Origin: Acidobacteriota bacterium
Lineage (GTDB): Bacteria; Acidobacteriota; UBA6911
DNA length: 64,000 nucleotides
Direction: 5' to 3'
Assembly: GCA_016934295.1 (NCBI GenBank)
Contig: JAFGTD010000152.1
Span: 19,624 to 83,623 of the forward strand
In this document: positions 10,882-62,487 of the stretch, piece after piece
Layout: each line of letters opens with the position of its first letter
Numbering within the stretch: the stretch's first letter is position 1
Made by a program: the position numbers and the translations under genes
The notes under the pieces: model-generated
Seen by the model: the letters and a program-made list of their open reading frames with translations, nothing else
What the model was told of the DNA's origin: nothing
Databases searched by the model: none

Positions 10882-10897
10882 TGCAACTCACATGCCA
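10882..10897 (-). promoter_or_regulatory. Sigma54 (-24/-12) promoter for the fliL-fliM operon
   Basis: The minus strand reads TGGCAT-GTGAG-TTGCA, a full match to the YTGGCAY-N5-TTGCW consensus. It lies about 50 nt upstream of the fliL ATG. Confidence 0.55.
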
Positions 10898-14029: not shown

Positions 14030-14046
14030 TGCATATTCCGTGCCAG
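14030..14046 (-). promoter_or_regulatory. Sigma54 (-24/-12) promoter for flgD-flgE
   Basis: The minus strand reads CTGGCACG-GAAT-ATGCA. It lies about 110 nt upstream of flgD, between fliK and flgD. Confidence 0.5.
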
Positions 14047-22597: not shown

Positions 22598-22612
22598 AGC
22601 AACTAATGTGCC
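22598..22612 (-). promoter_or_regulatory. Sigma54 (-24/-12) promoter for flgBC-fliEFGHIJK
   Basis: The minus strand reads TGGCAC-ATTAG-TTGCT, a full match to the consensus. It lies about 50 nt upstream of the flgB ATG. Confidence 0.65.
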
Positions 22613-22790
22613 AAAAATGCTTTAAATATTTGATTTATTAAAGAAGCACGACGTTTGGAGTGCATCGGTTCTCTTCTTTTACGCATCTACTGTACCGGCC
22701 GATCGATTTTGATTCCTTTCGGTGCATCTACCCTCATTTTAACGACAGGAAACAAATCCTTGATGATAAGGATATTACCGGGCATTTAAC

Positions 22791-24182
22791 TCAAACGGAC
22801 GCATGCGAGTGGGCAGATTTTGCCTGCCTTCCCTGCAGCCCCCTGTCCTGAAGTCCGAATTCATTTAATTTATTTCTCAGGGTTCTCAGGCTAATGCCGA
22901 GACTTTTAGCGGCCCGAGTCCGATTTCCCCCGGTATCTTCCAGGGTTCTGCAGATCAATTGACGCTCCATTTCCCGCATGGTAACTCCGGCGGAAAATCC
23001 CAGTTCGTGGGATTTTGTTTCCGTCTCGGACGCGGAAATCTCCGATTGGGGATTCAACAGAGGCAGATCTTCCACCCGTAGGTTTTCGCCGGGACAAAAG
23101 GCAAGAGCCCGCTGAATCGTATTTTCCAGTTCACGCACGTTGCCCGGCCAGGAATACCGCATCAAACGATCCAGCGCGTCAGAACTTAAAGCGACGGAGT
23201 TCTCTCCCGAATGTTTCCCGTATTTCTTGCAAAAGAAATCCGCAAGCAGGGGAATATCCTTACGTCGTTCCCTCAGAGGCGGGATGGTTAAACGAACCAC
23301 GTTCAACCGATAAAAGAGATCCTGCCTGAAATCGCCGCGGCGCACCAGTTCCTGCAGGTCGCGGTTTGTGGTGGCAATTATGCGGACATTGATCGAAACC
23401 GGAGTGCGTCCGCCGATGCGATCCACTTCTTTTTCCTGCAGAACCCGCAGTAGTTTGGCCTGAAGAATCGACGCCATTTCACCGATTTCATCGAGCAGCA
23501 ATGTTCCTTCGTTTGCAAGCTCGAATTTTCCGGGTTTTGAACTGATGGCCCCGGTGAATGCACCCTTCTCAAAACCGAACAATTCGCTTTCAAGCAGATT
23601 TTCAGGAAGAGCGGCACAATTAACCGCAACGAAATCATTGTTCGACCTGCCGCTCTTTTGATGAAGCATTCGCGCCAGCAATTCCTTGCCCGTTCCGCTT
23701 TCCGCTTCTATCAATATCGTGGCTTCGGTTGCGGCAGCCTGTGCAGCTAGTTCAAGGGTGCGTGAAAAATCCGGATCCTGAGTCAGGATCGTATGTGCCG
23801 TCTTTTCGTTTTTTTGCGGAATGGAATCAAGCGCCCGTCTGACTACACGCTCCAGTGCTTCCGATGAAAAAGGCTTGAGCAGATAATCATAGGCGCCGTG
23901 ACGCATCGCATCCACAGCGTTCTGAATCGTACCGTAGGCGGTCAGGAGAACAACCGGAGTTTGGGGCGAAAGAGATTGAACCTTCTTCAGGAGGTCCAGC
24001 CCGCTCAGTTCGGGCATTCTCATATCCGTAAGAACAAGATGGTAATATTTTTCCTTCAACCTGCACAAAGCCTCCATCACGCTTCCTGCAGTCGTGATGC
24101 CGTACCCTTTGCGCCTGAGCGTTTCTTGAACCGCAATAAGCATTTGCGGTTCGTCGTCAACCACAAGTATTTCTTCATCCAT
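22791..24182 (-). CDS. Sigma54-dependent two-component response regulator (FlrC/FleR-like, NtrC family)
   Basis: REC domain (VVDDEP...LVLTDMRMP), AAA+ sigma54-interaction domain (GESGTGKE...GAFTGA) and a C-terminal Fis-type HTH. The probable start is the ATG at 24182 (MDEEILVV...). That start overlaps the kinase stop in the sequence CATGGATGA. Confidence 0.85.
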   Translation of the reverse strand: MDEEILVVDDEPQMLIAVQETLRRKGYGITTAGSVMEALCRLKEKYYHLVLTDMRMPELSGLDLLKKVQSLSPQTPVVLLTAYGTIQNAVDAMRHGAYDYLLKPFSSEALERVVRRALDSIPQKNEKTAHTILTQDPDFSRTLELAAQAAATEATILIEAESGTGKELLARMLHQKSGRSNNDFVAVNCAALPENLLESELFGFEKGAFTGAISSKPGKFELANEGTLLLDEIGEMASILQAKLLRVLQEKEVDRIGGRTPVSINVRIIATTNRDLQELVRRGDFRQDLFYRLNVVRLTIPPLRERRKDIPLLADFFCKKYGKHSGENSVALSSDALDRLMRYSWPGNVRELENTIQRALAFCPGENLRVEDLPLLNPQSEISASETETKSHELGFSAGVTMREMERQLICRTLEDTGGNRTRAAKSLGISLRTLRNKLNEFGLQDRGLQGRQAKSAHSHASV

Positions 24183-25491
24183 GCATCGATTCCTTTGTAC
24201 TCCGGCTTTTTTCAGGCTCGGAAGGACGTGTTCCGAAGCTGATGATAAATGTAGTGCCGTGATTGATTTCACTGGAAACCCGGATGGTCCCGGAATGCTG
24301 TTCTACAATCCGATGGACCACGGAAAGTCCCAGTCCCGTCCCTTTTTTGTTGGTGGTGAAAAATGGATCGAATATACGATTCAGATTTTCCGGCGGAATG
24401 CCGATGCCTGAATCCTGGATTTTCACTTCCAGCCCCCTCCCGCTATCGTGCTCCTGTTTGATATTTTTAGTCTGAACCAGGAGCGAGCCTTCGGAAGGCA
24501 TGGCGTTCATGGCATTCATAATCAAATTCAGCATCATCTGCTTTATAAGTTCACTGTCGGCGCAAAGAACCGGCTGATCTGCTTTAAGTTGCTTCAGTAT
24601 CCGGACCTTCCGTTGATTCATAATAGGATGGGTAAATGCCAGAACGTCCTGAATGATTCTATGAATATCCACTTCTGCAAACGCCGGGGATAATGGATTG
24701 GCAAAATGAAGCATATTCGAAACTATATTATTTAGCGACCGGCTTCCGATCCGGATGTTCTCGGCCCACCGTTTTAAATCTCCCGACACCTCTTTTTCCA
24801 AAAGTGAAGCAAACAGCTCAACACTTCCCAGGGGATTCCGAATCTCGTGGGCCAGTTCTACTGCCATTTCTCCCATCGCGGAGAGTCTCTCGACCCGTTT
24901 ATTCTGCTCCTGGAGAGCCTTCATTTCGGTAATGTCGCGGATGATATGAAGAGTGCCGACCTGATCGCCGCCTGCATCCGTCAGAGGCGCACCCGAAGTA
25001 GCCAGTATCTTCTGTTTTTTCCCACGTTTGAGCGGGATTTCGACCTCGCGCTTGCTGCCGCTGCGCGCAACGGAAGAAGCGAGATAGGAGCGTACCCCCG
25101 AGTTGAGATAAGGCCGGCGATGTTTCCCTGATTTTGTAAGCACCTCGGCAGCCATTGGATTGCACAGGGTCAAATCACCCCTGTCGTCTAGAACCAATAC
25201 ACCGCATGGGAGTCTTTCGAGAATGTTATGCAAAAAATTCTGAGCTTCTTCCTTTTCCCGCAGGCTTTTTTCCAATTCCAGATTCTTGGCTTCCAGTTCC
25301 TCGGTAAGTTCCTGCGCTTTTGCCTGGAGTTGGCTGTATGCTGTTTCAAGGGAACTTGAAGCTTTCGTAAACATTTCAAAAGCTTCAATAAGTAATCCAG
25401 TTTCCCCCCCTTGCCTGATTCTTTTTTTGGGATCGGACGGAAATATCATGTTTTCAATTTTTTCTCTGACTCTCTCAACCTCCGGCGCCAT
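24175..25491 (-). CDS. Cytoplasmic PAS sensor histidine kinase (FlrB/FleS-like)
   Basis: No TM segment. Coiled coil, PAS domain, HisKA (ELAHEIRNPL) and HATPase_c (GTGLGLSVV). Translationally coupled to the downstream response regulator. Confidence 0.85.
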   Translation of the reverse strand: MAPEVERVREKIENMIFPSDPKKRIRQGGETGLLIEAFEMFTKASSSLETAYSQLQAKAQELTEELEAKNLELEKSLREKEEAQNFLHNILERLPCGVLVLDDRGDLTLCNPMAAEVLTKSGKHRRPYLNSGVRSYLASSVARSGSKREVEIPLKRGKKQKILATSGAPLTDAGGDQVGTLHIIRDITEMKALQEQNKRVERLSAMGEMAVELAHEIRNPLGSVELFASLLEKEVSGDLKRWAENIRIGSRSLNNIVSNMLHFANPLSPAFAEVDIHRIIQDVLAFTHPIMNQRKVRILKQLKADQPVLCADSELIKQMMLNLIMNAMNAMPSEGSLLVQTKNIKQEHDSGRGLEVKIQDSGIGIPPENLNRIFDPFFTTNKKGTGLGLSVVHRIVEQHSGTIRVSSEINHGTTFIISFGTRPSEPEKSRSTKESMHG

Positions 25492-25752
25492 AGGTGCCCT
25501 CCAGGGGATCTTGCCTCAACATTCGACATAGCGCGACCGCTCTCGTTAGGACGATGCCTGCTCGATTAATAGGCAATCCCTATGCCATGTCGCGACCAAA
25601 AATTTTTAAAATATGTATTCCATTTATTTACAATAGGATAGACTTACCGCGCCGACATTATATTCTCCGGACCCTACTTTCATTTCCATCTAAGGAGTCA
25701 ATTTGTTGACATTCGTGCAATCGAAGCTTTGACGTACAATCAGTGAATAAAG

Positions 25753-25801
25753 CAGTGGGCAGTGGGCAGTGGGCAGTGGGCAGTGGGCAGTGGGCAGTGG
25801 G
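25753..25801. repeat. Perfect heptanucleotide microsatellite (CAGTGGG)x7
   Basis: Seven uninterrupted CAGTGGG units, read directly in the sequence. Intergenic, between the kinase and the divergent response regulator. Confidence 0.9.
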
Positions 25802-26045
25802 CGATCCCGATGCCGACTCCGATACCGACACCGGGGAGAAATTTGGACACCCATTATCTAGCAGTAAGCAGTGGGTAGTTGGCAATAAATCGTGTGCAGC
25901 AGGGGCGAACCTTGCATCCGAGGGCAAAATCGGTGTCGGGGTCGGTATCGCTATCGGGATCGAAAGTGGGTAATGTGCAGTGGGCGATCCCGATGCCGAT
26001 TCCGATCCCGACTCCGGTGGGGAGAAATTTGGACACCCATTATCT
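25802..26045. repeat. Two direct copies of a roughly 57-bp unit [CAGTGGG + (CGAYNC)x5 hexamer array + GGGGAGAAATTTGGACACCCATTATCT], with an inverted copy of the hexamer array between them
   Basis: Direct copies at 25802-25859 and 25978-26045. Inverted hexamer array at 25931-25962 (CGGTGTCGGGGTCGGTATCGCTATCGGGATCG). The whole block is bracketed by a 10-bp direct repeat, AGTGAATAAA, at 25742-25751 and 26082-26091. Confidence 0.8.
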
Positions 26046-26120
26046 TAATGTTGAAGATTGAGAACTCATCTCTGTTCAAAGAGTGAATAAAATTTTTTTT
26101 GCGCAGGCGGAATGATTTTG

Positions 26121-26150
26121 TTGACAAATATGAATACTATGAGATATATA
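26121..26150 (+). promoter_or_regulatory. Sigma70-like promoter (TTGACA-N18-TATATA) for the downstream response-regulator gene
   Basis: TTGACA at 26121-26126, an 18-nt spacer, then TATATA. It lies about 65 nt upstream of the ATG at 26214. Confidence 0.35.
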
Positions 26151-26213
26151 AAAAATCCGAGTCGCAGTTTTCAGCATCCGTTTAACTAAAATCCGAATTC
26201 TTACGAGGGGCCA

Positions 26214-27626
26214 ATGGTACGCAAAAAGGACGTCAGGATCCTTATCGTCGATGATGAAGACTATATGCGGGAAGTTGTCCGACAAGCTCTCGAAGGTGCC
26301 GATTTTGAAGTTGATGAAGCCGCCGACGGTAAAACGGCACTGGCAATGCTTCGTCAATATCCCTACAACGTAATCGTTACCGATATACGACTGCCCGGAC
26401 TGACCGGAGATAAAATCCTCGAAGAAGCTCTTTCACTTTTTTCTGAAACGATTGTCATTGTAATGACCGGCTTTGGAAATATACAGTCCGCCGTAGAAGC
26501 CATGCGTAAAGGCGCCTACGACTACTTACCGAAACCGTTTCAGTTGGACGAACTTGTAGTTCGTGTCGAAAAAGGACTGGAAGAGCAACAACTCAAGTCG
26601 GAGAACCGGATGTTGCGGGGAGAGCTTCAAAGCAAGTATCATTTCTCGAATCTCGTCGGAAACAGTTCGGCGATGCAGAACATCTACAGGCTGATCAGTG
26701 TTGTTGCCTCCAAGAACAGCACGGTGCTTATCGAGGGAGAAACGGGAACCGGCAAAGAATTGATCGCGCGTGCCATTCACTACAACGGCCCCCGCAAAGA
26801 CCAGCCTCTGGTCAGCGTCAATTGCGGAGCGATCCCTTCGAACCTTCTTGAAGACGAGCTCTTCGGCCATGTAAAAGGAGCTTTTACCGGTGCCCATCAG
26901 CACAGAATCGGAAGGTTCGAACAGGCAAACCATGGCACGCTTTTCCTGGACGAAGTGTCCAGCATGCCGATGGATCTCCAGGTAAAATTGCTGCGGGTAC
27001 TTCAGGAACGTGAATTCCAGAGAGTCGGCAGCCCCACAACTGTTAAAGTGGACGTGCGCATCGTTGCCGCTACAAACAGCAATCTTCTTGACGCGGTAGA
27101 AAAGGGCGATTTCCGGGAAGACCTGTACTATCGTTTGAACGTAATACCCATGCATGTCCCGTCACTGAAAAATCGACGCGAGGACATCCCGTTTTTAATC
27201 CAGCATTTCTTAAACAAATACTGCACGGACGAGGATCTTCAACCCAAAAGCGTTTCGAATGAAGCTATGAAGTACCTGATGTCCTACGATTGGCCGGGCA
27301 ACGTCCGCCAGCTGTCGAACTCGATTGAAATGGCGGTCGCGCTCTCGGGAGACAGGGATGTCCTGGATATGGAGGATTTCCCCGTTGTTACAAAGCCGGC
27401 CGACTCCAAGGCATCCTTTCAGGCCATCGATATTCCGGACAACGGCCTCGATTTCAACACCATGATTTCCGACCTTGAAAAACAGCTGATACTCCAAAGT
27501 CTGCAGGTGGCCAGGGGAAATAAAAAGCGGGCGGCCTCCCTTCTCCAGTTGAAAAGGACCACCTTCGTCGAAAAGCTGCGTCGCATGGGAGTGGAATCAT
27601 CTGCGGGCGAATCGGCCGAAATCTAA
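26214..27626 (+). CDS. Sigma54-dependent response regulator (NtrC family); no kinase gene adjacent on this side
   Basis: 470 aa. REC domain with conserved Asp residues, AAA+ domain (GETGTGKE, GAFTGA) and a C-terminal HTH. Confidence 0.85.
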   Translation: MVRKKDVRILIVDDEDYMREVVRQALEGADFEVDEAADGKTALAMLRQYPYNVIVTDIRLPGLTGDKILEEALSLFSETIVIVMTGFGNIQSAVEAMRKGAYDYLPKPFQLDELVVRVEKGLEEQQLKSENRMLRGELQSKYHFSNLVGNSSAMQNIYRLISVVASKNSTVLIEGETGTGKELIARAIHYNGPRKDQPLVSVNCGAIPSNLLEDELFGHVKGAFTGAHQHRIGRFEQANHGTLFLDEVSSMPMDLQVKLLRVLQEREFQRVGSPTTVKVDVRIVAATNSNLLDAVEKGDFREDLYYRLNVIPMHVPSLKNRREDIPFLIQHFLNKYCTDEDLQPKSVSNEAMKYLMSYDWPGNVRQLSNSIEMAVALSGDRDVLDMEDFPVVTKPADSKASFQAIDIPDNGLDFNTMISDLEKQLILQSLQVARGNKKRAASLLQLKRTTFVEKLRRMGVESSAGESAEI

Positions 27627-29403: not shown

Positions 29404-29650
29404 ACACTTCATCGAACGTACTAACGTGCGAACGTACTAACGTGCGAACGTGGGATGACGGGATGGGCTTATTGATTGAACGAAATCGGCATGTCTTCAT
29501 ACCTGTAACTCTTTGGGAATGCGGAGCGAGTCTCGGTCACGGATGAATGGGGCGGGGCAGGTAGGAGCGTTTGAAAGTACTAACGTGCTAACGTTAAAAC
29601 CAACTACATTGTGTTCGGGTTTATGACGGATGAATGGCAAAGGAGATGAG
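29404..29650. repeat. Left repeat array of the argH-speA islet: two inverted copies of a composite unit (AACGT repeats at 8-bp phase plus a GGTGACGGATGAATGG-like submotif)
   Basis: 29411-29458 reads (CG)AACGTACTAACGTGCGAACGTACTAACGTGCGAACGTGGGATGACGG, the reverse complement of the right-side unit. Further copies lie at 29536-29562, 29576-29597 and 29622-29640. Confidence 0.7.
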
Positions 29651-29714
29651 TACCGCCAGCATATTTTATCTTTCCGGTAACTGAATTAATTTGCCTCCTT
29701 TCTTTCTATATAAT

Positions 29715-30314
29715 CTATTCATATTGTAGGTGTACGTTTTTAAAACCGTTTATTCTCAACATTTTAAAAAATTCTTCTGAGGGAGTGTCCCTAACTTGAA
29801 GTTGAAGAATTACGCATGAAACGCACTCAGTTTTAGAGCGGATCCAATTCTCTAATTGCGGATAGTTCATATTTCTGCCATCAACAATAAATGTATCAAT
29901 TCCCAAAACCCTTATTGGTGCAAGATGTTGCCCTCTGATTGGATTATTGCTAGCAAAATCAAACCAAACAGTAATGATTCCTGACATTTTATAAGTATTT
30001 TCATTATCTGTAAGCGGCAAAAACTTCCACGTATTGATGTAATTTACAGCGCTTTCATTTAAAAAAGAATGTCCTGCAATGATGTTTGTTTTCTCTACGA
30101 TACCGTTTTCGTTAATTACAACAGATAAGATTACTCGTCCTGGAATTTTTGGCTTCCCGATATCAGGATATTGAAGTTCACCTTTTTCAATCACACGATC
30201 AAGCAGAAATTCCTCAGTAACATATTCCGTATTGAACGCAAGTGTTGATGTAACAAATAACGAACAAAATGCAATGAATATCATGAAGGCTTTCATCCTC
30301 ATGCCTTTCCACAT
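29715..30314 (-). CDS. Hypothetical secreted protein (signal peptide; weak resemblance to a TonB C-terminal-like fold) in an AT-rich islet
   Basis: 199-aa ORF, about one-third GC by eye against roughly 50% in the flanks. N-terminus MKAFMIFIAFCSLFVTSTLA; the likely start is at 30296. The middle region (YPDIGKPKIPGRVILSVVINENGIVEKTNIIAGHSFLNESAVNYINTWKFLP) is reminiscent of TonB_C. Confidence 0.45.
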   Translation of the reverse strand: MWKGMRMKAFMIFIAFCSLFVTSTLAFNTEYVTEEFLLDRVIEKGELQYPDIGKPKIPGRVILSVVINENGIVEKTNIIAGHSFLNESAVNYINTWKFLPLTDNENTYKMSGIITVWFDFASNNPIRGQHLAPIRVLGIDTFIVDGRNMNYPQLENWIRSKTECVSCVILQLQVRDTPSEEFFKMLRINGFKNVHLQYE

Positions 30315-30371
30315 GAATGATTATAATATTCCTATACCCCCTATTCCGGGCAAGGGCAATTAAAAAGACAT

Positions 30372-30810
30372 AATGTTTTCGGCAATCATATGAAGAGCTG
30401 CATCATAGAGCGTTCTCACATTCATACGTTAGCTCACGAAAGAGTGATTTATTCCGTGATAGATACCCCGCCATTTATCCGTCACCGGATCTCACCCCAC
30501 CTTTCCAGGCAGCAACAACTACAACGACATATCGATTTCGGCAATCAGGGAACGAACTCCGTCATCCCACGTTCGCACGTTAGTACGTTCACACGTTAGC
30601 ACGTTCGCACGTTTTACGTTAAAAGTTAGAACGTTTGCCCCACTCATGAACCGGCCCTCCGCCATTCATCCATCACCGGACCTCACTCTTTATTCCCAGA
30701 TAGATACAATTATAAATATAAACCGATTTCGGCAATCAGGGAACGAACTCCGTCATCCCACGTTCGCACGTTAGTACGTTCACACGTTAGCACGTTAATC
30801 GTTAAAGATA
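30372..30810. repeat. Right repeat array of the islet: three direct, diverging copies of a roughly 100-190-bp unit containing ACGTT at exact 8-bp phasing
   Basis: Copies at about 30372-30500, 30527-30690 and 30722-30810. ATTTCGGCAATCAGGGAACGAACTCCGTCATCCCACGTTCGCACGTTAGTACGTTCACACGTTAGCACGTT is duplicated almost perfectly. ACGTT starts at 30569, 30577, 30585, 30593, 30601, 30609, 30616 and 30631. Confidence 0.75.
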
Positions 30811-35998: not shown

Positions 35999-37159
35999 CT
36001 AGCTTTCCTGACCGGTCGTCGAAGTTTTCCCCGGATCTTCCGACTTAGCGTCCTTCACTTCGGTCGGCTCTTCCTTTTCTTCTTCTGACTTTACGTCCTT
36101 TGCAGGATCGGCCGGTGCAGATTCCGCCGGTGCAGGATCGGCTGGTGCAGATTCCACCGGTGCAGGATCGGCCGGTGCAGATTCCGCCGGGGTTGCCGCG
36201 ACCTCGGTCTTTTTGGTTTTAGCTTTGCGCTGCAGTGTTTTTCGCATGGTAGTTTTTGGCTTAGCAGCGGATTCCGCGGCGCCCGCATTTTCGTCTGCAG
36301 AGGAACCCTGACCATCGGGAACAGTGGCTGCATCCGTTTGATCGGTTGCCGGCGCTTTCGTATCTGCAGCCGCGGCGGCCGCTTTTTCAGCAGCTTCTCG
36401 AGCGGCGGCAGCCTGCTTTGCCTGGATCTGGCGCTGTTTTTCCATTTGTTCCGCCAGTTCCTTTTGCTGTGCTTCGTATACGGCCTTGCCGTCCAGATAT
36501 GCCTGGGCGATTGTATCCGTAATCAGCCGGATAGCCCGCAGGGCATCATCGTTGCCCGGAATGATATAGTCGATTTCATCCGGATCGCAGTTGGTGTCGG
36601 CCACGCCGACTACCGGAATTCCCAGCTTGACCGCCTCTTTAATCGCGATGGTTTCAAGTTTAGTATCAATCACGAAAAGCGCGTCCGGCAATCCGGTCAT
36701 ATCCTTGATGCCGGAGAGGTTTTTCTCGAGCTTTTTTCTTTCCCGCTCGTAACGCGCCACCTCTTTTTTGGAAAAAAGATCGTATTGCCCGTTACTACGC
36801 ATGGTCTCCAGTTCGCGGAACCGTTTAATGCTTTTCTGTATCGTAACGAAATTGGTGAGAAGTCCTCCCAACCACCTCTGATTTACGTAGTAGGTCGATG
36901 TCTTTTGCGCAGCTTCCTGAATGGCTTCCTGCGCCTGCCGCTTCGTACCTAAAAACAGGATGGTTTTCCCCTGGCTTCCCAGATCGTACATGAATTGAAT
37001 TGCGCTCTTGAACAGCCTGATGCTTTTCTGCAAATCAATAATGTATATGCCGTTTCTCTGCCCGAAGATATATTCTTTCATCTTCGGATTCCAGCGTTTT
37101 GTCTGGTGGCCGAAGTGGACTCCTGCCTCCAGCAATTGCTTCATGGTTATCGAAACCAA
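35999..37159 (-). CDS. rpsB: 30S ribosomal protein S2 with a roughly 135-aa low-complexity C-terminal extension
   Basis: TTG start at 37159 with a GAGGAGGT Shine-Dalgarno sequence. The N-terminus (V)[25 protein letters not shown] matches S2. The C-terminal tail is rich in A/E/K/P and contains [10 protein letters not shown] repeats. Confidence 0.9.
36101..36190. repeat. 3x 30-bp perfect or near-perfect tandem repeat inside the rpsB 3' extension
   Basis: TGCAGGATCGGCCGGTGCAGATTCCGCCGG repeated three times, with two substitutions. It encodes the ([10 protein letters not shown])3 segment. Confidence 0.8.
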
Positions 37160-41411: not shown

Positions 41412-43916
41412 ATGGCGGGTATGAAAATTCGACTCACTGGAAAGAACATTTTCGGATCTAATCAAACGGGGAATACAAAGTACTGTATTCTTCTTTTCAT
41501 TCTAGCGTTTTCCGTTCCGTTGTTTACCGCGGCAAAGGAAGTGTCGGAGGATAAGAAACCTCCCTCCGTTGGATCCCTTAAGGACATTTCGGCTTCACAG
41601 GAGGATGGTAAATTGACGGTAACCATGAAAACGGACCGGTTGATGAAGCCGCAAGCATTCAGGCTGGAGAATCCCTCCCGTCTGGTTGTCGACTTTCAGA
41701 ATACCGTTAATAAAGTTACTTTCATGAAATTGCCGTTAAATGCGCCGTCCGCCAAGCAACTGCGCGTCAGTCAGTTTCAGAGATCTAATCCCCAAATAGC
41801 GCGGGTAGTGTTCGATCTGGAAAAGGATTTTGGAACTCACAACATAACTCAAGACAATACTTCGGTTCAGGTAACGCTCTATCCTGCAAAGCCTGGAACG
41901 AACAAAACCGCTTCCGGCATTGAAAAGAAAGCTGAAAGCCCGGCCGTTACACCGGCCAGCGCTGCCAAAACCACCGAACCGGTCAAGACAGCCGATTCTT
42001 CGGAAAAACCGGAGGCTGCCGGGGTGGATTCCTCTTCCCTGAAGAAAGCTGAAAGCCCGGCCGTTACACCGGTCGGCGCTGCCAAAACCATCGAACCGGT
42101 CAAGACAGCCGTTTCTTCGGAAAAACCGGAGGCTGCCAGGGTGGATTCCTCTTCCCTGAAGAAAGCTGAGAGCCCGGCCGTTACACCGGTCAGCGCTGCC
42201 AAAACCATCGAACCGGTCAAAGCAGCCTCTTCCTCGCAACAATCGGAGATCCCCAAGGTTGCTTTTTCCTCCCTGAAGAAGGCTGAAAGCCCGGACGTTA
42301 CATCGGCCCGTGCTGCCGAAAGCATCGAACCGGTCGAAGCAGCCGTTTCCTCGCAACAATCGGAGATCCCCAAGGTTGCTTTCTCTTCCCGGATGAAAGC
42401 TGAAAGTCCGGCCGTTTCGCCTGTTCCTGCCAATATCGATTCTTCAAAAGAAACCGAATTGAAAAAAAGCGGGCTCAAAATGTCGGACGAAAAAGCCAAA
42501 GAAATTCCGGCTTTGATAGCATCACTGTCTCCAATGTCGCCGCTCAACCAGTCTGCTCCACCTCCAGCACCGCCTGCGGTATCTCAATCATCCCAAATTT
42601 CAAGGTTCTCCGGACAGCTGCTGACTCTGGATTTTGTCGAGCTTCCACTGGTCGACTTTTTCCGGGTTATGTCTGAAGAAGCCGGCATCAATATCGTTCT
42701 CGATCCCAAGGTAAAAGGAGATATCTCCATCAAAGTAGAAAAGCTACCGTGGGATCAGATTTTTGACATGGTTCTGGTCAATTATTCCCTGGATAAGCAG
42801 ATTGAAGGCAACCTGATTCGCATTGCGCACAAATCGACATTACAGGAGGAGGCTAAACAGCAAGAAGCTCTCAAGAAAGCCAAACTGCTTGCCGCAGACC
42901 TGGAAACGCGGGTCAAGCGATTGAATTATGCGAAAGCAGAAGACCTCATGTCATCCCTGGAGGACTTGAAAACGGTTCGCGGTAATGTTGTGCACGATGA
43001 ACGAACGAACTCGCTGGTTATGACCGATATACCGAGTGAGCTGGATAAAATGATGCAATTGATAACCACTCTGGATATACCGCAACCGCAGGTGGAGATC
43101 GAAGCCCGCATCGTTTCCGCCGCACGGGATTTCGCCCGTGAAATCGGCATACAATTCGGTTTTGTCCAGGGTAATCTCGAACGCGTCACCGTCGGCGGGC
43201 CGAATACTTTCGGCACTATCGGCGGCACGAGGCCAAGCGCAACGCCGAACTCAACCTATATCGCCGGGAATCCTGCGACAGGTAGGGGCGCTGCCGAAGA
43301 TGAAGTCGGCGATATCGGATCCGTCAGCACGGGTGGTGCGGGTAATTACAATGTGAATCTGCCCGCAACGAAAGCTTTCGGCGGGCTGGGCATCTCCGTC
43401 GGGAATATCTTCGACACCTTCCTGCTTGACGCGGCGCTTACAGCCGGAGAAACCAAGGGCCTTGCCAAGCTCATTTCGCAACCGAAGGTTACGGCCCAGA
43501 ACAACAGCCCCGCCGTCATTACCCAGGGAACCCGTTTCCCCGTGTTGGTAAATTCAAATAATACGATCACGGTACAGTTTTTCAATGCCGCATTAACGCT
43601 GACGGTAACGCCGCAAATTACCTATGAAGGCAATATCGTTCTTGATTTGAAAGTCGAGAACAACACGGCGGATTGGGGACGGAATGTCGGCGGTGTCCCG
43701 TCCATAAGAATCAGTGAATCCGCAAGCCGGGTATTGGTCAGCGATGGAGGAACAACTGTTATCGGCGGCATCCTCATCGACGATGAATCCAACTCGGGAG
43801 ATAAGGTACCCGGTCTGGGCGACCTGCCTCTTGTCGGAAATCTTTTCCGCCGGTCGTCTGTTTCTCGGTCCACCCAGGAAGTCCTGTTCTTTGTTACACC
43901 CCGAATCGTCAACTAG
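41412..43916 (+). CDS. pilQ: Type IV pilus secretin PilQ with an AMIN domain and an internal tandem-repeat linker
   Basis: Signal peptide, AMIN-like domain (LTVTMKTDRLMKPQAFRLENPSRLVVDF), repeat linker, secretin N domains and the secretin C domain (VPGLGDLPLVGNLFRRSS...VLFFVTPRIV). Confidence 0.9.
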   Translation: MAGMKIRLTGKNIFGSNQTGNTKYCILLFILAFSVPLFTAAKEVSEDKKPPSVGSLKDISASQEDGKLTVTMKTDRLMKPQAFRLENPSRLVVDFQNTVNKVTFMKLPLNAPSAKQLRVSQFQRSNPQIARVVFDLEKDFGTHNITQDNTSVQVTLYPAKPGTNKTASGIEKKAESPAVTPASAAKTTEPVKTADSSEKPEAAGVDSSSLKKAESPAVTPVGAAKTIEPVKTAVSSEKPEAARVDSSSLKKAESPAVTPVSAAKTIEPVKAASSSQQSEIPKVAFSSLKKAESPDVTSARAAESIEPVEAAVSSQQSEIPKVAFSSRMKAESPAVSPVPANIDSSKETELKKSGLKMSDEKAKEIPALIASLSPMSPLNQSAPPPAPPAVSQSSQISRFSGQLLTLDFVELPLVDFFRVMSEEAGINIVLDPKVKGDISIKVEKLPWDQIFDMVLVNYSLDKQIEGNLIRIAHKSTLQEEAKQQEALKKAKLLAADLETRVKRLNYAKAEDLMSSLEDLKTVRGNVVHDERTNSLVMTDIPSELDKMMQLITTLDIPQPQVEIEARIVSAARDFAREIGIQFGFVQGNLERVTVGGPNTFGTIGGTRPSATPNSTYIAGNPATGRGAAEDEVGDIGSVSTGGAGNYNVNLPATKAFGGLGISVGNIFDTFLLDAALTAGETKGLAKLISQPKVTAQNNSPAVITQGTRFPVLVNSNNTITVQFFNAALTLTVTPQITYEGNIVLDLKVENNTADWGRNVGGVPSIRISESASRVLVSDGGTTVIGGILIDDESNSGDKVPGLGDLPLVGNLFRRSSVSRSTQEVLFFVTPRIVN
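41925..42440. repeat. 117-bp (39-aa) tandem repeat, about 4.4 copies, inside pilQ
   Basis: Copies start at 41925, 42042, 42159, 42276 and 42393. They encode KKAESPAVTPxSAAKTxEPVKxAxSSxKPEAAxVDSSSL. Confidence 0.85.
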
Positions 43917-57422: not shown

Positions 57423-57692
57423 AACATAAATGTTTATCGGGGAAGAGTGTGTTTCGACGGAATTAAGGAATGCGCTCTTCCCCTTACCCTCCCGCTCTCT
57501 CCCCCCTCAATTTTTACGCACCCCGAAATTCCTGGTATTTTCTGCAATTTACCTGTAGATCGGAGAAACTTCCTTGAACTTTGAAGCGTCGGGCGGTTTG
57601 AAGAATCTTCGATTCGGGGGCGAGCGTAGGATGCACTGAACACCGCCATATATAAAACTCTTGAGAAGCGCCGGCCAACCTTGCACCACAGG

Positions 57693-62406: not shown

Positions 62407-62487
62407 GGCTGGATAATCCCGATTAAAAGCAGGAGTTGGAAGAAACGTTTTAACGTTGAACGTTTGAACGTTATTCTTCCGGCTTGG

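What the first reader, a model, noticed from the sequence alone, without database searches (positions are those of the whole stretch)
25742..26091. Hepta- and hexanucleotide simple-sequence repeats between the flagellar PAS kinase / sigma54 regulator operon and a divergent sigma54 regulator: potential slipped-strand (phase-variable) control region
Seen in sequence. A perfect (CAGTGGG)7 microsatellite lies at 25753-25801. It is immediately followed by a (CGAYNC)5 hexamer array and a conserved 27-bp tail. The entire roughly 57-bp unit recurs at 25978-26045, and an inverted copy of the hexamer array lies between the two copies (25931-25962). The block is bracketed by a 10-bp direct repeat, AGTGAATAAA (25742-25751 and 26082-26091), which suggests a local duplication or insertion event. 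Heptamer tracts of seven or more units in promoter regions are classic substrates for slipped-strand mispairing. They alter promoter-element spacing and give ON/OFF or graded switching. Here the tract is about 260 bp upstream of the kinase start on one side and about 410 bp upstream of the divergent response-regulator gene on the other. A weak sigma54-like element (aGGggCG-N4-TTGCA, 25901-25916) and inverted hexamer arrays, which could be enhancer-binding-protein upstream activating sequences, sit in the same block. Variation in repeat number could therefore tune expression of the flagellar master two-component system.
Basis: partly seen in the sequence, partly recalled or inferred. Interest (0 to 1): 0.55.

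Follow-up and report, generated by a model that had tools for sequence, protein, structure and literature searches.

The report
Fast-evolving simple-repeat spacer between flagellar promoters
The repeats are real, but they sit in a dispensable, rapidly changing stretch of DNA between two conserved promoters of an uncultured Acidobacterium, so they look like an ordinary bacterial microsatellite rather than a proven genetic switch.

Summary
These are a perfect (CAGTGGG)7, two CGAYNC hexamer arrays plus one inverted copy, a 27-bp tail duplicated exactly, and a 10-bp bracketing direct repeat.

Fourteen loci from about ten related lineages of uncultured Acidobacteria show the whole block (25752-26081) is a lineage-specific filling. 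Three lineages have an empty site with a single copy of the bracketing repeat. The filled lineages hold unalignable interiors of very different length.

The conserved regulatory elements lie outside the block. They are a minus-strand sigma-54 promoter (25572-25587), a palindrome at a fixed 116-119 bp from it, and the regulator gene's TTGACA/TATATA promoter. The distance across the block varies from 68 to 450 bp with no helical phase kept.

I read the tract as a slippage-prone, G-quadruplex-capable heptanucleotide microsatellite. It belongs to the known STRR / long-SSR kind, and the same unit occurs in many phyla. It grew inside an old insertion- or duplication-derived spacer.

Phase-variable promoter control is not supported, although copy-number heterogeneity could not be tested. 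The sigma-54-like site inside the block is a remnant of a hairpin repeat and is not conserved. Interest is low to moderate.

The parts
25742..25751 (.). Left copy of the 10-bp direct repeat AGTGAATAAA; end of the conserved left flank.
   Evidence: D5. Conserved in all relatives. Present as a single copy in the empty-site lineages L131 and L138/139.
25753..25801 (+). Perfect (CAGTGGG)7 microsatellite. Seven GGG runs with 4-nt loops make a canonical G-quadruplex motif on the + strand.
   Evidence: It is the only + strand G3N1-7 x4 motif in the 64-kb window, and ViennaRNA with the G4 option prefers a quadruplex for the isolated tract.
25802..25831 (+). Hexamer array 1, (CGAYNC)5.
25833..25859 (+). 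27-bp tail, copy 1 (GGGGAGAAATTTGGACACCCATTATCT).
   Evidence: (D4). No match anywhere else in the window, nor in the genome or metagenome collections.
25862..25882 (+). Three degenerate heptamers: CAGTAAG CAGTGGG TAGTTGG.
25883..25930 (.). Unique spacer. It holds GGGGCGAACCTT (25902-25913), a remnant of the hairpin repeat GGGGCGAAC...TTCGCCC seen intact in relatives.
   Evidence: sequences of L006, L130, L136 and L137.
25931..25962 (-). Inverted hexamer array. It is the left arm of an 86-nt hairpin or cruciform with 25985-26016.
   Evidence: I1: 32-nt arms, 84% complementary, 22-nt loop. It is the dominant stem in the DNA fold of the block, z = -2.8.
25964..25984 (+). Three heptamers, AAGTGGG TAATGTG CAGTGGG (two degenerate), heading the second copy of the unit.
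   Evidence: D2.
25985..26016 (+). Hexamer array 2 (5.3 units); right arm of the hairpin.
26019..26045 (+). 27-bp tail, copy 2, identical to copy 1.
26046..26081 (.). Right end of the block. It carries remnants of a GATTGAA heptamer (five units in L006). The last ~33 bp are homologous to L006, L130 and L005.
26082..26091 (.). Right copy of the direct repeat AGTGAATAAA, followed by a T-run. This is the start of the conserved right flank, an A/T-rich stretch about 30-40 bp upstream of the regulator's -35.
25572..25587 (-). Context, not part of the block. Sigma-54-type promoter TGGCATAGGGATTGCC for the kinase/regulator (FlrBC-like) operon.
   Evidence: GCAATC.C..TGCCAT is invariant in 7 lineages.
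25697..25710 (.). Context. Invariant palindrome GTCAATTTGTTGAC, 116-119 bp from the sigma-54 promoter in every lineage; a candidate activator site.
26115..26152 (+). Context. Second ATTTTGTTGACA site, which includes the -35 (26121-26126), plus the invariant ATGAGATATATAAA. This is the likely promoter of the divergent response-regulator gene (ATG at 26214).
   Evidence: It does not meet the scan tool's strict -10 rule.

Best explanation
The block 25752-26081 is non-coding, lineage-specific filler made of simple repeats. It sits in the gap between two conserved, divergently oriented promoter modules of an uncultured Acidobacterium.

An old insertion or duplication opened the site, leaving the AGTGAATAAA direct repeat at both ends. 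The inserted segment began with a CAGT-type heptamer array and held a GC-rich hairpin repeat.

Since then the interior has changed freely. In this lineage the heptamer array was expanded and homogenised to seven perfect CAGTGGG units, most likely by replication slippage (inferred). A [heptamer-hexamer-27 bp] unit was duplicated in direct orientation, and its hexamer part also in inverted orientation, most likely by template switching (inferred).

The tract belongs to the known class of intergenic heptanucleotide microsatellites of free-living bacteria (cyanobacterial STRR, 'long SSRs', G4-forming GGGNNNN repeats). It can form a G-quadruplex, and the inverted hexamers can form a cruciform.

It has no sequence-specific regulatory role. 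Both promoters and the candidate activator site lie outside it, and the spacer length is evolutionarily unconstrained. Changes in copy number are therefore expected to be close to neutral.
For: Shown:
- The repeats are real.
- Empty sites with one copy of the bracket occur in L131, L132-134 and L138/139.
- Filled lineages whose regulator proteins are 92-95% identical to the window's have interiors that cannot be aligned, while the flanks are near-invariant.
- The first bases after AATAAA are CAGT-type heptamers in every filled lineage, in different numbers: 7 perfect here; ACAGTTG GCAATCG GCAGTAA GCAGTAG in L137; 2 in L130; 4 in L006.
- The palindrome-to-sigma-54 distance is fixed at 116-119 bp, while the distance across the spacer runs from 68 to 450 bp without phase conservation.
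- The block gave no Rfam family, no Pfam match for any block ORF and no terminator-like site.
- The tail and hexamer arrays were found nowhere else, so they are local duplications and not a dispersed element.
- (CAGTGGG)>=3 occurs in more than 120 species-representative genomes of many phyla. It is usually embedded in CAGTNNN variants and often sits at contig ends.

Literature:
- Heptanucleotide long SSRs are the commonest class in many free-living bacteria and are attributed to polymerase slippage (Mrazek 2007, as summarised in PMC4679880).
- G-rich heptamers GGGAATC and GGGGA(C/T)T form G4s in vitro. They vary in length between close relatives and have no identified regulatory role (PMC4692102).
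Against: - Seven perfect units directly abutting a conserved regulatory block, in front of flagellar regulators, is the kind of place where contingency repeats are found.
- Neutrality is inferred from comparison of lineages that differ by at least 5% in protein sequence, not from strains or reads.
- Rehm et al. found G-rich heptamers under-represented between divergent genes, so this location is atypical for the class.
- Only one heptamer locus occurs in the 64-kb window, so genome-wide abundance, a feature of STRR/LSSR-rich genomes, is not shown for this organism.
- No terminal inverted repeats or other copies were found, so the nature of the original insertion is unresolved.
Confidence: 0.65

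Rival explanations
1. Contingency locus. Slippage in (CAGTGGG)n changes the spacing or phasing between regulatory sites and switches or grades expression of the FlrBC-like operon or of the divergent regulator. The precedents are the heptamer repeat upstream of Haemophilus influenzae hmw1A and the TAAA tract upstream of Neisseria nadA.
For: - The tract is perfect and has 7 units.
- It begins 1 bp after a conserved block and lies between two copies of an AATTTGTTGACA-like site. If both sites were bound by one activator, they could cooperate by looping.
- The genes are flagellar regulators.
- A heptamer SSR is known to control hmw1A (PMC12721329).
Against: - The tract lies 166 bp beyond the -24 element of the sigma-54 promoter and beyond its fixed-distance palindrome. 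It lies 320 bp upstream of the regulator's -35.
- Spacer length varies 68-450 bp among lineages with no helical phase kept, and three lineages lack the block altogether while keeping both promoters.
- In hmw1A the repeat is transcribed within the 5'-UTR. No promoter reading into this tract was found here.
- The organism is an environmental Acidobacterium, not a host-adapted pathogen.
Confidence: 0.1
2. Non-B DNA element. The G-quadruplex-prone heptamers and the cruciform-prone inverted hexamers absorb the negative supercoiling generated between two divergent promoters (twin-domain model). In doing so they insulate or couple the two promoters.
For: - The tract is the only canonical G4 motif on the + strand of the window, and G4 is preferred for the isolated tract.
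- The block contains a strong 32-bp-arm inverted repeat.
- The location is exactly between divergent promoters.
- Similar heptamers form G4s in vitro (PMC4692102).
Against: - Relatives do without it, or fill the site with other sequences, some without G4 motifs (L001, L129).
- There is no direct evidence of structure formation.
- In sequence context the folding program prefers ordinary pairing to a G4.
Confidence: 0.1
3. Decayed mobile element (MITE-like or REPIN-like) whose repeats are parts of the element itself rather than products of local slippage.
For: - A 10-bp direct repeat flanks the block, and empty sites exist in outgroup lineages.
- The hairpin architecture resembles such elements.
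- Elsewhere in the window a TonB-domain gene is flanked by inverted repeats built on ACGTT octamer arrays, so SSR-bearing repeat units do recur in this genome.
Against: - There are no terminal inverted repeats.
- No second copy of the tail or junction exists in the window or in two large collections.
- The bracket is shared by lineages with entirely different interiors, so the present repeats arose after the insertion.
Confidence: 0.1
4. The block encodes a small protein or an RNA. The candidates are the 76-aa ORF at 25743-25973 (+), the 60-aa ORF at 25854-26036 (-), or a hairpin sRNA.
For: - ORFs run through the repeats, and the hexamers read as Asp-(Pro/Ala/Ser/Thr) codons.
- The hairpin is stable.
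Against: - No Pfam match and no Rfam match.
- There is no Shine-Dalgarno sequence before either start codon.
- No relative conserves the ORFs or the hairpin.
- Heptamer repeats are open in all frames by construction.
Confidence: 0.03

Closest known systems
Cyanobacterial STRR heptamers (STRR1 CCCCAGT, STRR3 CAACAGT; Mazel et al. 1990, from memory) and the TAACTGA repeats of Beggiatoaceae, Cyanobacteria and Bacteroidetes (MacGregor 2015, PMC4679880)
   Same: - Tandem 7-nt units, intergenic and imperfect at the edges.
- They differ between close relatives by 7-bp steps and cause contig breaks.
- All contain the CAGT/ACTG tetranucleotide (TAACTGA is the complement of CAGTTAT).
- Function is unknown.
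   Different: - The unit CAGTGGG is not one of the described units.
- The host is an Acidobacterium.
- Only one locus is seen in 64 kb.
[quoted passage not shown]
G-quadruplex-forming heptamer SSRs: GGGAATC in Xanthomonas and GGGGA(C/T)T in Nostoc (Rehm et al. 2015, PMC4692102)
   Same: - G3-4 plus 3-4 other bases per 7-nt unit, with at least 4 units.
- Non-coding, with length varying between relatives.
- Sometimes paired with inverted copies.
- No regulatory role has been identified.
   Different: - Those repeats prefer four units and lie within 50 bp of ORF ends between co-directional genes. They are under-represented between divergent genes.
- Here there are seven units, more than 250 bp from either gene, between divergent genes.
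- G4 formation was not measured here.
Long simple sequence repeats of prokaryotes (Mrazek et al. 2007, as summarised in PMC4679880)
   Same: A heptanucleotide unit, far longer than chance, in a non-pathogen; attributed to polymerase slippage.
   Different: That is a statistical class, not a functional family. Genome-wide enrichment in this organism was not testable.
Phase-variable heptamer SSR upstream of Haemophilus influenzae hmw1A/hmw2A, (ATCTTTC)n (PMC12721329)
   Same: A 7-bp unit in the upstream region of a surface-structure-related operon.
   Different: - The hmw repeat is transcribed in the 5'-UTR, forms an RNase III-processed hairpin, and occurs in a host-adapted pathogen with at least 11 units.
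- The tract here lies upstream of both promoters in a dispensable spacer.

Membership tests
Phase-variable (contingency) SSR locus | The repeat tract lies within the promoter spacer, between a regulator site and its promoter, in the 5'-UTR, or in the ORF of the controlled gene. | tested here: not met
   The tract 25753-25801 lies outside the conserved sigma-54 promoter (25572-25587), beyond the fixed-distance palindrome (25697-25710), and 320 bp upstream of the regulator's -35.
Phase-variable (contingency) SSR locus | Unit number is polymorphic among close strains or within a population. | not testable with these tools
   No relative is closer than 95% protein identity. The only second assembly of the same sequence (L135) breaks inside the tract. 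More distant lineages do differ in unit number.
Phase-variable (contingency) SSR locus | A long, perfect tract (mutationally active). | tested here: met
   7.3 copies, 100% matches.
Phase-variable (contingency) SSR locus | Spacing across the tract matters for expression, that is, length is constrained to discrete states. | tested here: not met
   The distance across the spacer is 68, 82, 104, 238, 276, 301, 339, 352, 416 or 450 bp in different lineages, with no helical phase kept. This is indirect, comparative evidence.
Heptanucleotide LSSR / STRR-type repeats | A tandem array of 7-nt units longer than chance, in non-coding DNA. | tested here: met
   the region is intergenic.
Heptanucleotide LSSR / STRR-type repeats | Many dispersed arrays per genome. 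| tested here: inconclusive
   There is one heptamer locus in the 64-kb window, and the rest of the genome is not available.
Heptanucleotide LSSR / STRR-type repeats | The unit is identical to a described STRR unit. | tested here: not met
   CAGTGGG is not a rotation or complement of CCCCAGT, TTGGTCA or CAACAGT. It shares only the CAGT core (sequence inspection; STRR units recalled from memory).
G4-forming heptamer SSR (Rehm et al.) | At least four G3+ runs at 7-nt spacing. | tested here: met
   Seven GGG runs with 4-nt loops; regex and ViennaRNA gquad.
G4-forming heptamer SSR (Rehm et al.) | Quadruplex formation demonstrated (CD spectra, K+ dependence). | not testable with these tools
   Needs biophysics.
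MITE / insertion element | Target-site duplication with empty sites in relatives. | tested here: met
   The 10-bp AGTGAATAAA lies at both ends. It is single-copy in the empty sites of L131 and L138/139.
MITE / insertion element | Terminal inverted repeats. | tested here: not met
   No inverted repeat pairs the two ends of the block.
MITE / insertion element | Multiple copies in the genome. | tested here: not met
   The tail occurs only twice, both times in this block. There are 0 hits in genome contigs and metagenome contigs; the source genome itself appears to be absent from those collections.
   The core is present in the window. Homologous GGGGCGAACCTT segments in L006 and L130 continue CCGG, and in L136 TTTA, so they lack TTGC; the site is absent in other lineages.

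The most novel reading that the evidence does not exclude
The same CAGT-core heptamer, here CAGTGGG, forms tandem arrays in Acidobacteriota, Planctomycetota, Bacteroidota, Cyanobacteria, Chloroflexota, Verrucomicrobiota, Desulfobacterota and others. This may reflect a shared, sequence-specific process, such as a CAGT-recognising protein or a dedicated mode of array growth, rather than neutral slippage. In this locus the array would then serve as a length-variable, G4-forming spacer. It would set the coupling between the activator site of the sigma-54 flagellar promoter and the promoter of the divergent regulator, giving heritable but reversible tuning of motility in a free-living bacterium.
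Probability: 0.08. Interest if true: 0.7.

Novelty: new member of a known kind. Interest (0 to 1): 0.28.

Why it matters
If the ordinary reading holds, the value is mainly negative and practical.

- The locus shows that a striking perfect microsatellite in front of regulatory genes need not be a switch.
- Comparing empty and filled sites in related metagenome lineages can separate conserved promoter architecture from filler.
- The comparison also defines the likely real control elements of an acidobacterial flagellar cascade. These are a sigma-54 promoter with a fixed-distance palindrome and a second copy of the site at the regulator's own promoter.
- It adds Acidobacteria to the hosts of STRR-like, G4-prone heptamer repeats.

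The wide phyletic spread of the CAGT-core heptamers is unexplained and is the part that deserves a systematic census.

Tried and rejected
- Rfam, whole window at gathering thresholds: no family.
- 20-mer of the 27-bp tail: no hit in genome contigs or metagenome contigs.
- 22-mer of the left junction in metagenome contigs: no hit, although L006 (a JGI metagenome) contains it. That collection is therefore incomplete for this clade.
- Exact look-up of the window's regulator protein: not on record.
- The identical kinase gave only a Logan contig that ends inside the tract, so no copy-number comparison was possible.
- Hexamer pattern CGAYNC x4 in the 134 loci fetched up to that point: none.
- Small ORFs in the block against Pfam at E <= 1: none.
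- Terminator scan: none. The sigma-70 scan flagged only a weak + strand site at 25605-25634. The regulator's conserved TTGACA-N18-TATATA fails the tool's -10 rule.
- NCBIfam naming of the three regulators: only generic NtrC/AtoC-like matches, all below cut-offs. 'Master regulator' is therefore not established.
- I considered whether the interior is a decayed tandem duplication of the regulator's promoter and 5' end, because L001 holds a 35-nt copy of the regulator's ribosome-binding site and start. The similarity does not extend further, so this is left open.
- A literature search for STRR terms gave nothing beyond the three papers cited.

Full report
**1. Observation**

- TRF reports a period-7 array at 25752-25802 with 7.3 copies, 100% matches and score 102.
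- The 14-mer CAGTGGGCAGTGGG with up to two mismatches matches 8 times against 0.22 expected.
- Five CGAYNC hexamers follow at 25802-25831. The triple-hexamer pattern matches 10 times against 0.16 expected.
- The 27-bp tail occurs twice, identically, at 25833-25859 and 26019-26045.
- The second copy of the unit is 89% identical over 53 nt (D2).
- An inverted hexamer array at 25931-25962 pairs with 25985-26016 (32-nt arms, 84% complementary, 22-nt loop, I1). This is the dominant stem when the block is folded as single-stranded DNA (z = -2.8).
- AGTGAATAAA brackets the block (D5).
- There are also degenerate heptamers at 25862-25882 and 25964-25977.

**2. Context**

Pfam confirms the neighbouring genes:
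- a PAS/HisKA/HATPase kinase at 24175-25491 (-);
- an NtrC-type sigma-54 activator at 22791-24272 (-), followed by flgB, flgC, fliF and fliG;
- a divergent NtrC-type response regulator at 26214-27626 (+), followed by argininosuccinate lyase.

NCBIfam gives only generic AtoC/NtrC-like matches below cut-off. JGI names some kinase homologues FlrB. The window comes from an uncultured Acidobacteria MAG: a 100% identical protein sits on a 92,874-bp NCBI contig.

**3. Comparison with relatives**

I fetched the same locus from lineages whose regulator is 88-95% identical. I then read and aligned the intergenic regions.

The flanks are strongly conserved.
- Left flank: the kinase start; a minus-strand sigma-54-type promoter TGGCATAGGGATTGCC at 25572-25587, with GCAATC.C..TGCCAT invariant; the palindrome GTCAATTTGTTGAC at 25697-25710; and the sequence up to ...GTACAATCAGTGAATAAAG.
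- Right flank: from AGAGTGAATAAAATTTTTTTT through ATTTTGTTGACA (-35 at 26121-26126) and ATGAGATATATAAA to the regulator's ATG.

Between these flanks the lineages cannot be aligned.
- L131, L132-134 and L138/139 have no block. L138 reads ...GACGTACAGTCATTGAATAAAATATTTTTTTAACAGGAATTTGTTGACA..., a clean empty site with one copy of the bracket.
- The block is therefore an insertion or duplication that arose in the ancestor of the 92-95% clade.
- Its interior has since been rewritten in every lineage.

**4. Spacing**

- The palindrome lies 116-119 bp from the sigma-54 promoter in all lineages. This holds even in L132-134, where the downstream operon differs (flhG-like, fliA, fliM).
- The distance from the palindrome to the regulator's -35 is 68, 82, 104, 238, 276, 301, 339, 352, 416 (this window) or 450 bp, with no conserved helical phase.
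- My inference is that the palindrome works with the sigma-54 promoter, as an upstream activator site at about -140, and that the length of the other side is free.
- Further sigma-54-like sites precede flgB (22598-22613) and other flagellar genes. This fits a sigma-54 flagellar cascade.

**5. What the repeats are**

In every filled lineage the first bases after AATAAA are CAGT-type heptamers:
- seven perfect CAGTGGG units here;
- ACAGTTG GCAATCG GCAGTAA GCAGTAG in L137;
- GCAGTAG GCAGTGA in L130;
- GCAGTCG GCAGTCC GCAGTGG GCAGTAG a little further in for L006.

A second heptamer, GATTGAA, has five units in L006 and about two remnants here. A hairpin repeat GGGGCGAAC...TTCGCCC is intact in L006, L130, L136 and L137 and is reduced here to GGGGCGAACCTT at 25902-25913.

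The hexamer arrays and the tail occur in no relative, nowhere else in the window, and in neither large collection. They are therefore local, recent duplications.

**6. The wider class**

About 0.3 matches are expected by chance for a random 21-mer in that much sequence (my own estimate). The hits come from Planctomycetota, Acidobacteriota, Bacteroidota, Cyanobacteria, Chloroflexota, Verrucomicrobiota, Desulfobacterota and a few Streptomyces.
- The arrays are embedded in CAGTNNN variants with a median of 7 units. 23 of 124 have an inverted partner within 250 nt, against 7% of random windows.
- By a crude ORF test, 65 of 103 evaluable arrays are intergenic and only 8 lie between divergent ORFs.
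- Period 7 dominates the tandem repeats of those loci. 29 of 88 heptamer arrays with another consensus also carry CAGT/ACTG, against 5.5% for random units. That sample is biased by how it was chosen.

This matches published descriptions:
- STRR heptamers of cyanobacteria (from memory);
- TAACTGA repeats, the complement of CAGTTAT, shared by Beggiatoaceae, Cyanobacteria and Bacteroidetes (PMC4679880);
- heptanucleotide long SSRs attributed to polymerase slippage (Mrazek 2007, summarised);
- G4-forming GGGAATC and GGGGA(C/T)T repeats that vary between close relatives and have no identified regulatory role (PMC4692102).

The tract here is a canonical G3N4 motif and the only one on the + strand of the window. 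ViennaRNA with the G4 option prefers a quadruplex for the isolated tract (-14.4 against -10.3 kcal/mol) but not in its sequence context.

**7. Other readings tested**

- No Rfam family matches, no terminator-like site was found, and no block ORF matches Pfam.
- The ORFs lack ribosome-binding sites and are not conserved.
- There are no terminal inverted repeats.

**8. Verdict**

- The inference of an insertion or duplication is supported.
- The idea that the tract sits in, and tunes, a promoter is not supported. The real promoters and the candidate activator site are outside the block, and the spacer is dispensable and free in length.
- The most likely account is a slippage-prone, G4-capable heptanucleotide microsatellite, plus locally duplicated hexamer arrays, in unconstrained filler DNA (confidence about 0.65).
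- Whether unit number varies within the population could not be tested. The only independent assembly of the same sequence stops inside the tract.

Noticed in passing
window 29413-30797: The TonB_C-domain gene (29715-30314, -) lies between argH and the arginine decarboxylase gene. It is flanked by inverted repeats of about 65-150 bp built on ACGTT-core octamer arrays (29413-29562 against 30542-30731). The right arm is tandemly duplicated (30468-30605 and 30659-30796, 86%). Relatives have other content at this place: a cupin gene in L001, and the two genes only 27 bp apart in L131. This looks like a cassette with SSR-bearing ends. Another AACGTT octamer array lies at 62444-62472.
   Followed up: partly
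loci L009-L128 (genome-contig hits): (CAGTGGG)>=3 arrays occur in many phyla, mixed with CAGTNNN variants. They often come as inverted pairs forming long hairpins and often sit at contig ends. Period 7 and its multiples 14 and 21 dominate tandem repeats in those loci. Why the CAGT core recurs across phyla is unexplained.
   Followed up: partly
window 25572-25587, 25697-25710, 26115-26152: A conserved regulatory module travels with the regulator gene, even where the divergent operon differs (L132-134: flhG-like/fliA/fliM). It consists of a minus-strand sigma-54 promoter, a palindrome GTCAATTTRTTGAC at a fixed 116-119 bp from it, and a second AATTTGTTGACA overlapping the regulator's own -35. This suggests the divergent response regulator activates the sigma-54 promoter and autoregulates.
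   Followed up: partly
window 22598-22613 (-), 14030-14045 (-), 10882-10897 (-): Good sigma-54 promoter matches lie upstream of flgB and of other flagellar genes, for example TGGCACATTAGTTGCT before flgB.
   Followed up: no
L001/L002/L003, about 40 nt into the spacer (for example L001 ~1085-1120): In the 95% lineage the spacer holds a 35-nt copy of the regulator's own ribosome-binding site and start (GAGGGGTCCATGGTACGGAAAAAGGA). This opens a called 108-aa ORF that overlaps the true gene start. It is evidence of local duplication at this site.
   Followed up: partly
L004 start, L005 start, L135 end: Several independent assemblies break inside this spacer: L004 and L005 begin within it, and L135 ends after four heptamers. 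The region is repeat-rich and hard to assemble across the clade.
   Followed up: no
window 41925-42416 and 36101-36190: There is a 117-bp tandem repeat (4.2 copies, 87%) inside the 834-aa ORF 41412-43916, and a 30-bp repeat (3 copies) inside ORF 35999-37159 (-). They are probably repetitive protein domains or linkers.
   Followed up: no
window 57480-57506 (-): This is the only other canonical G-quadruplex motif in the window, on the minus strand.
   Followed up: no
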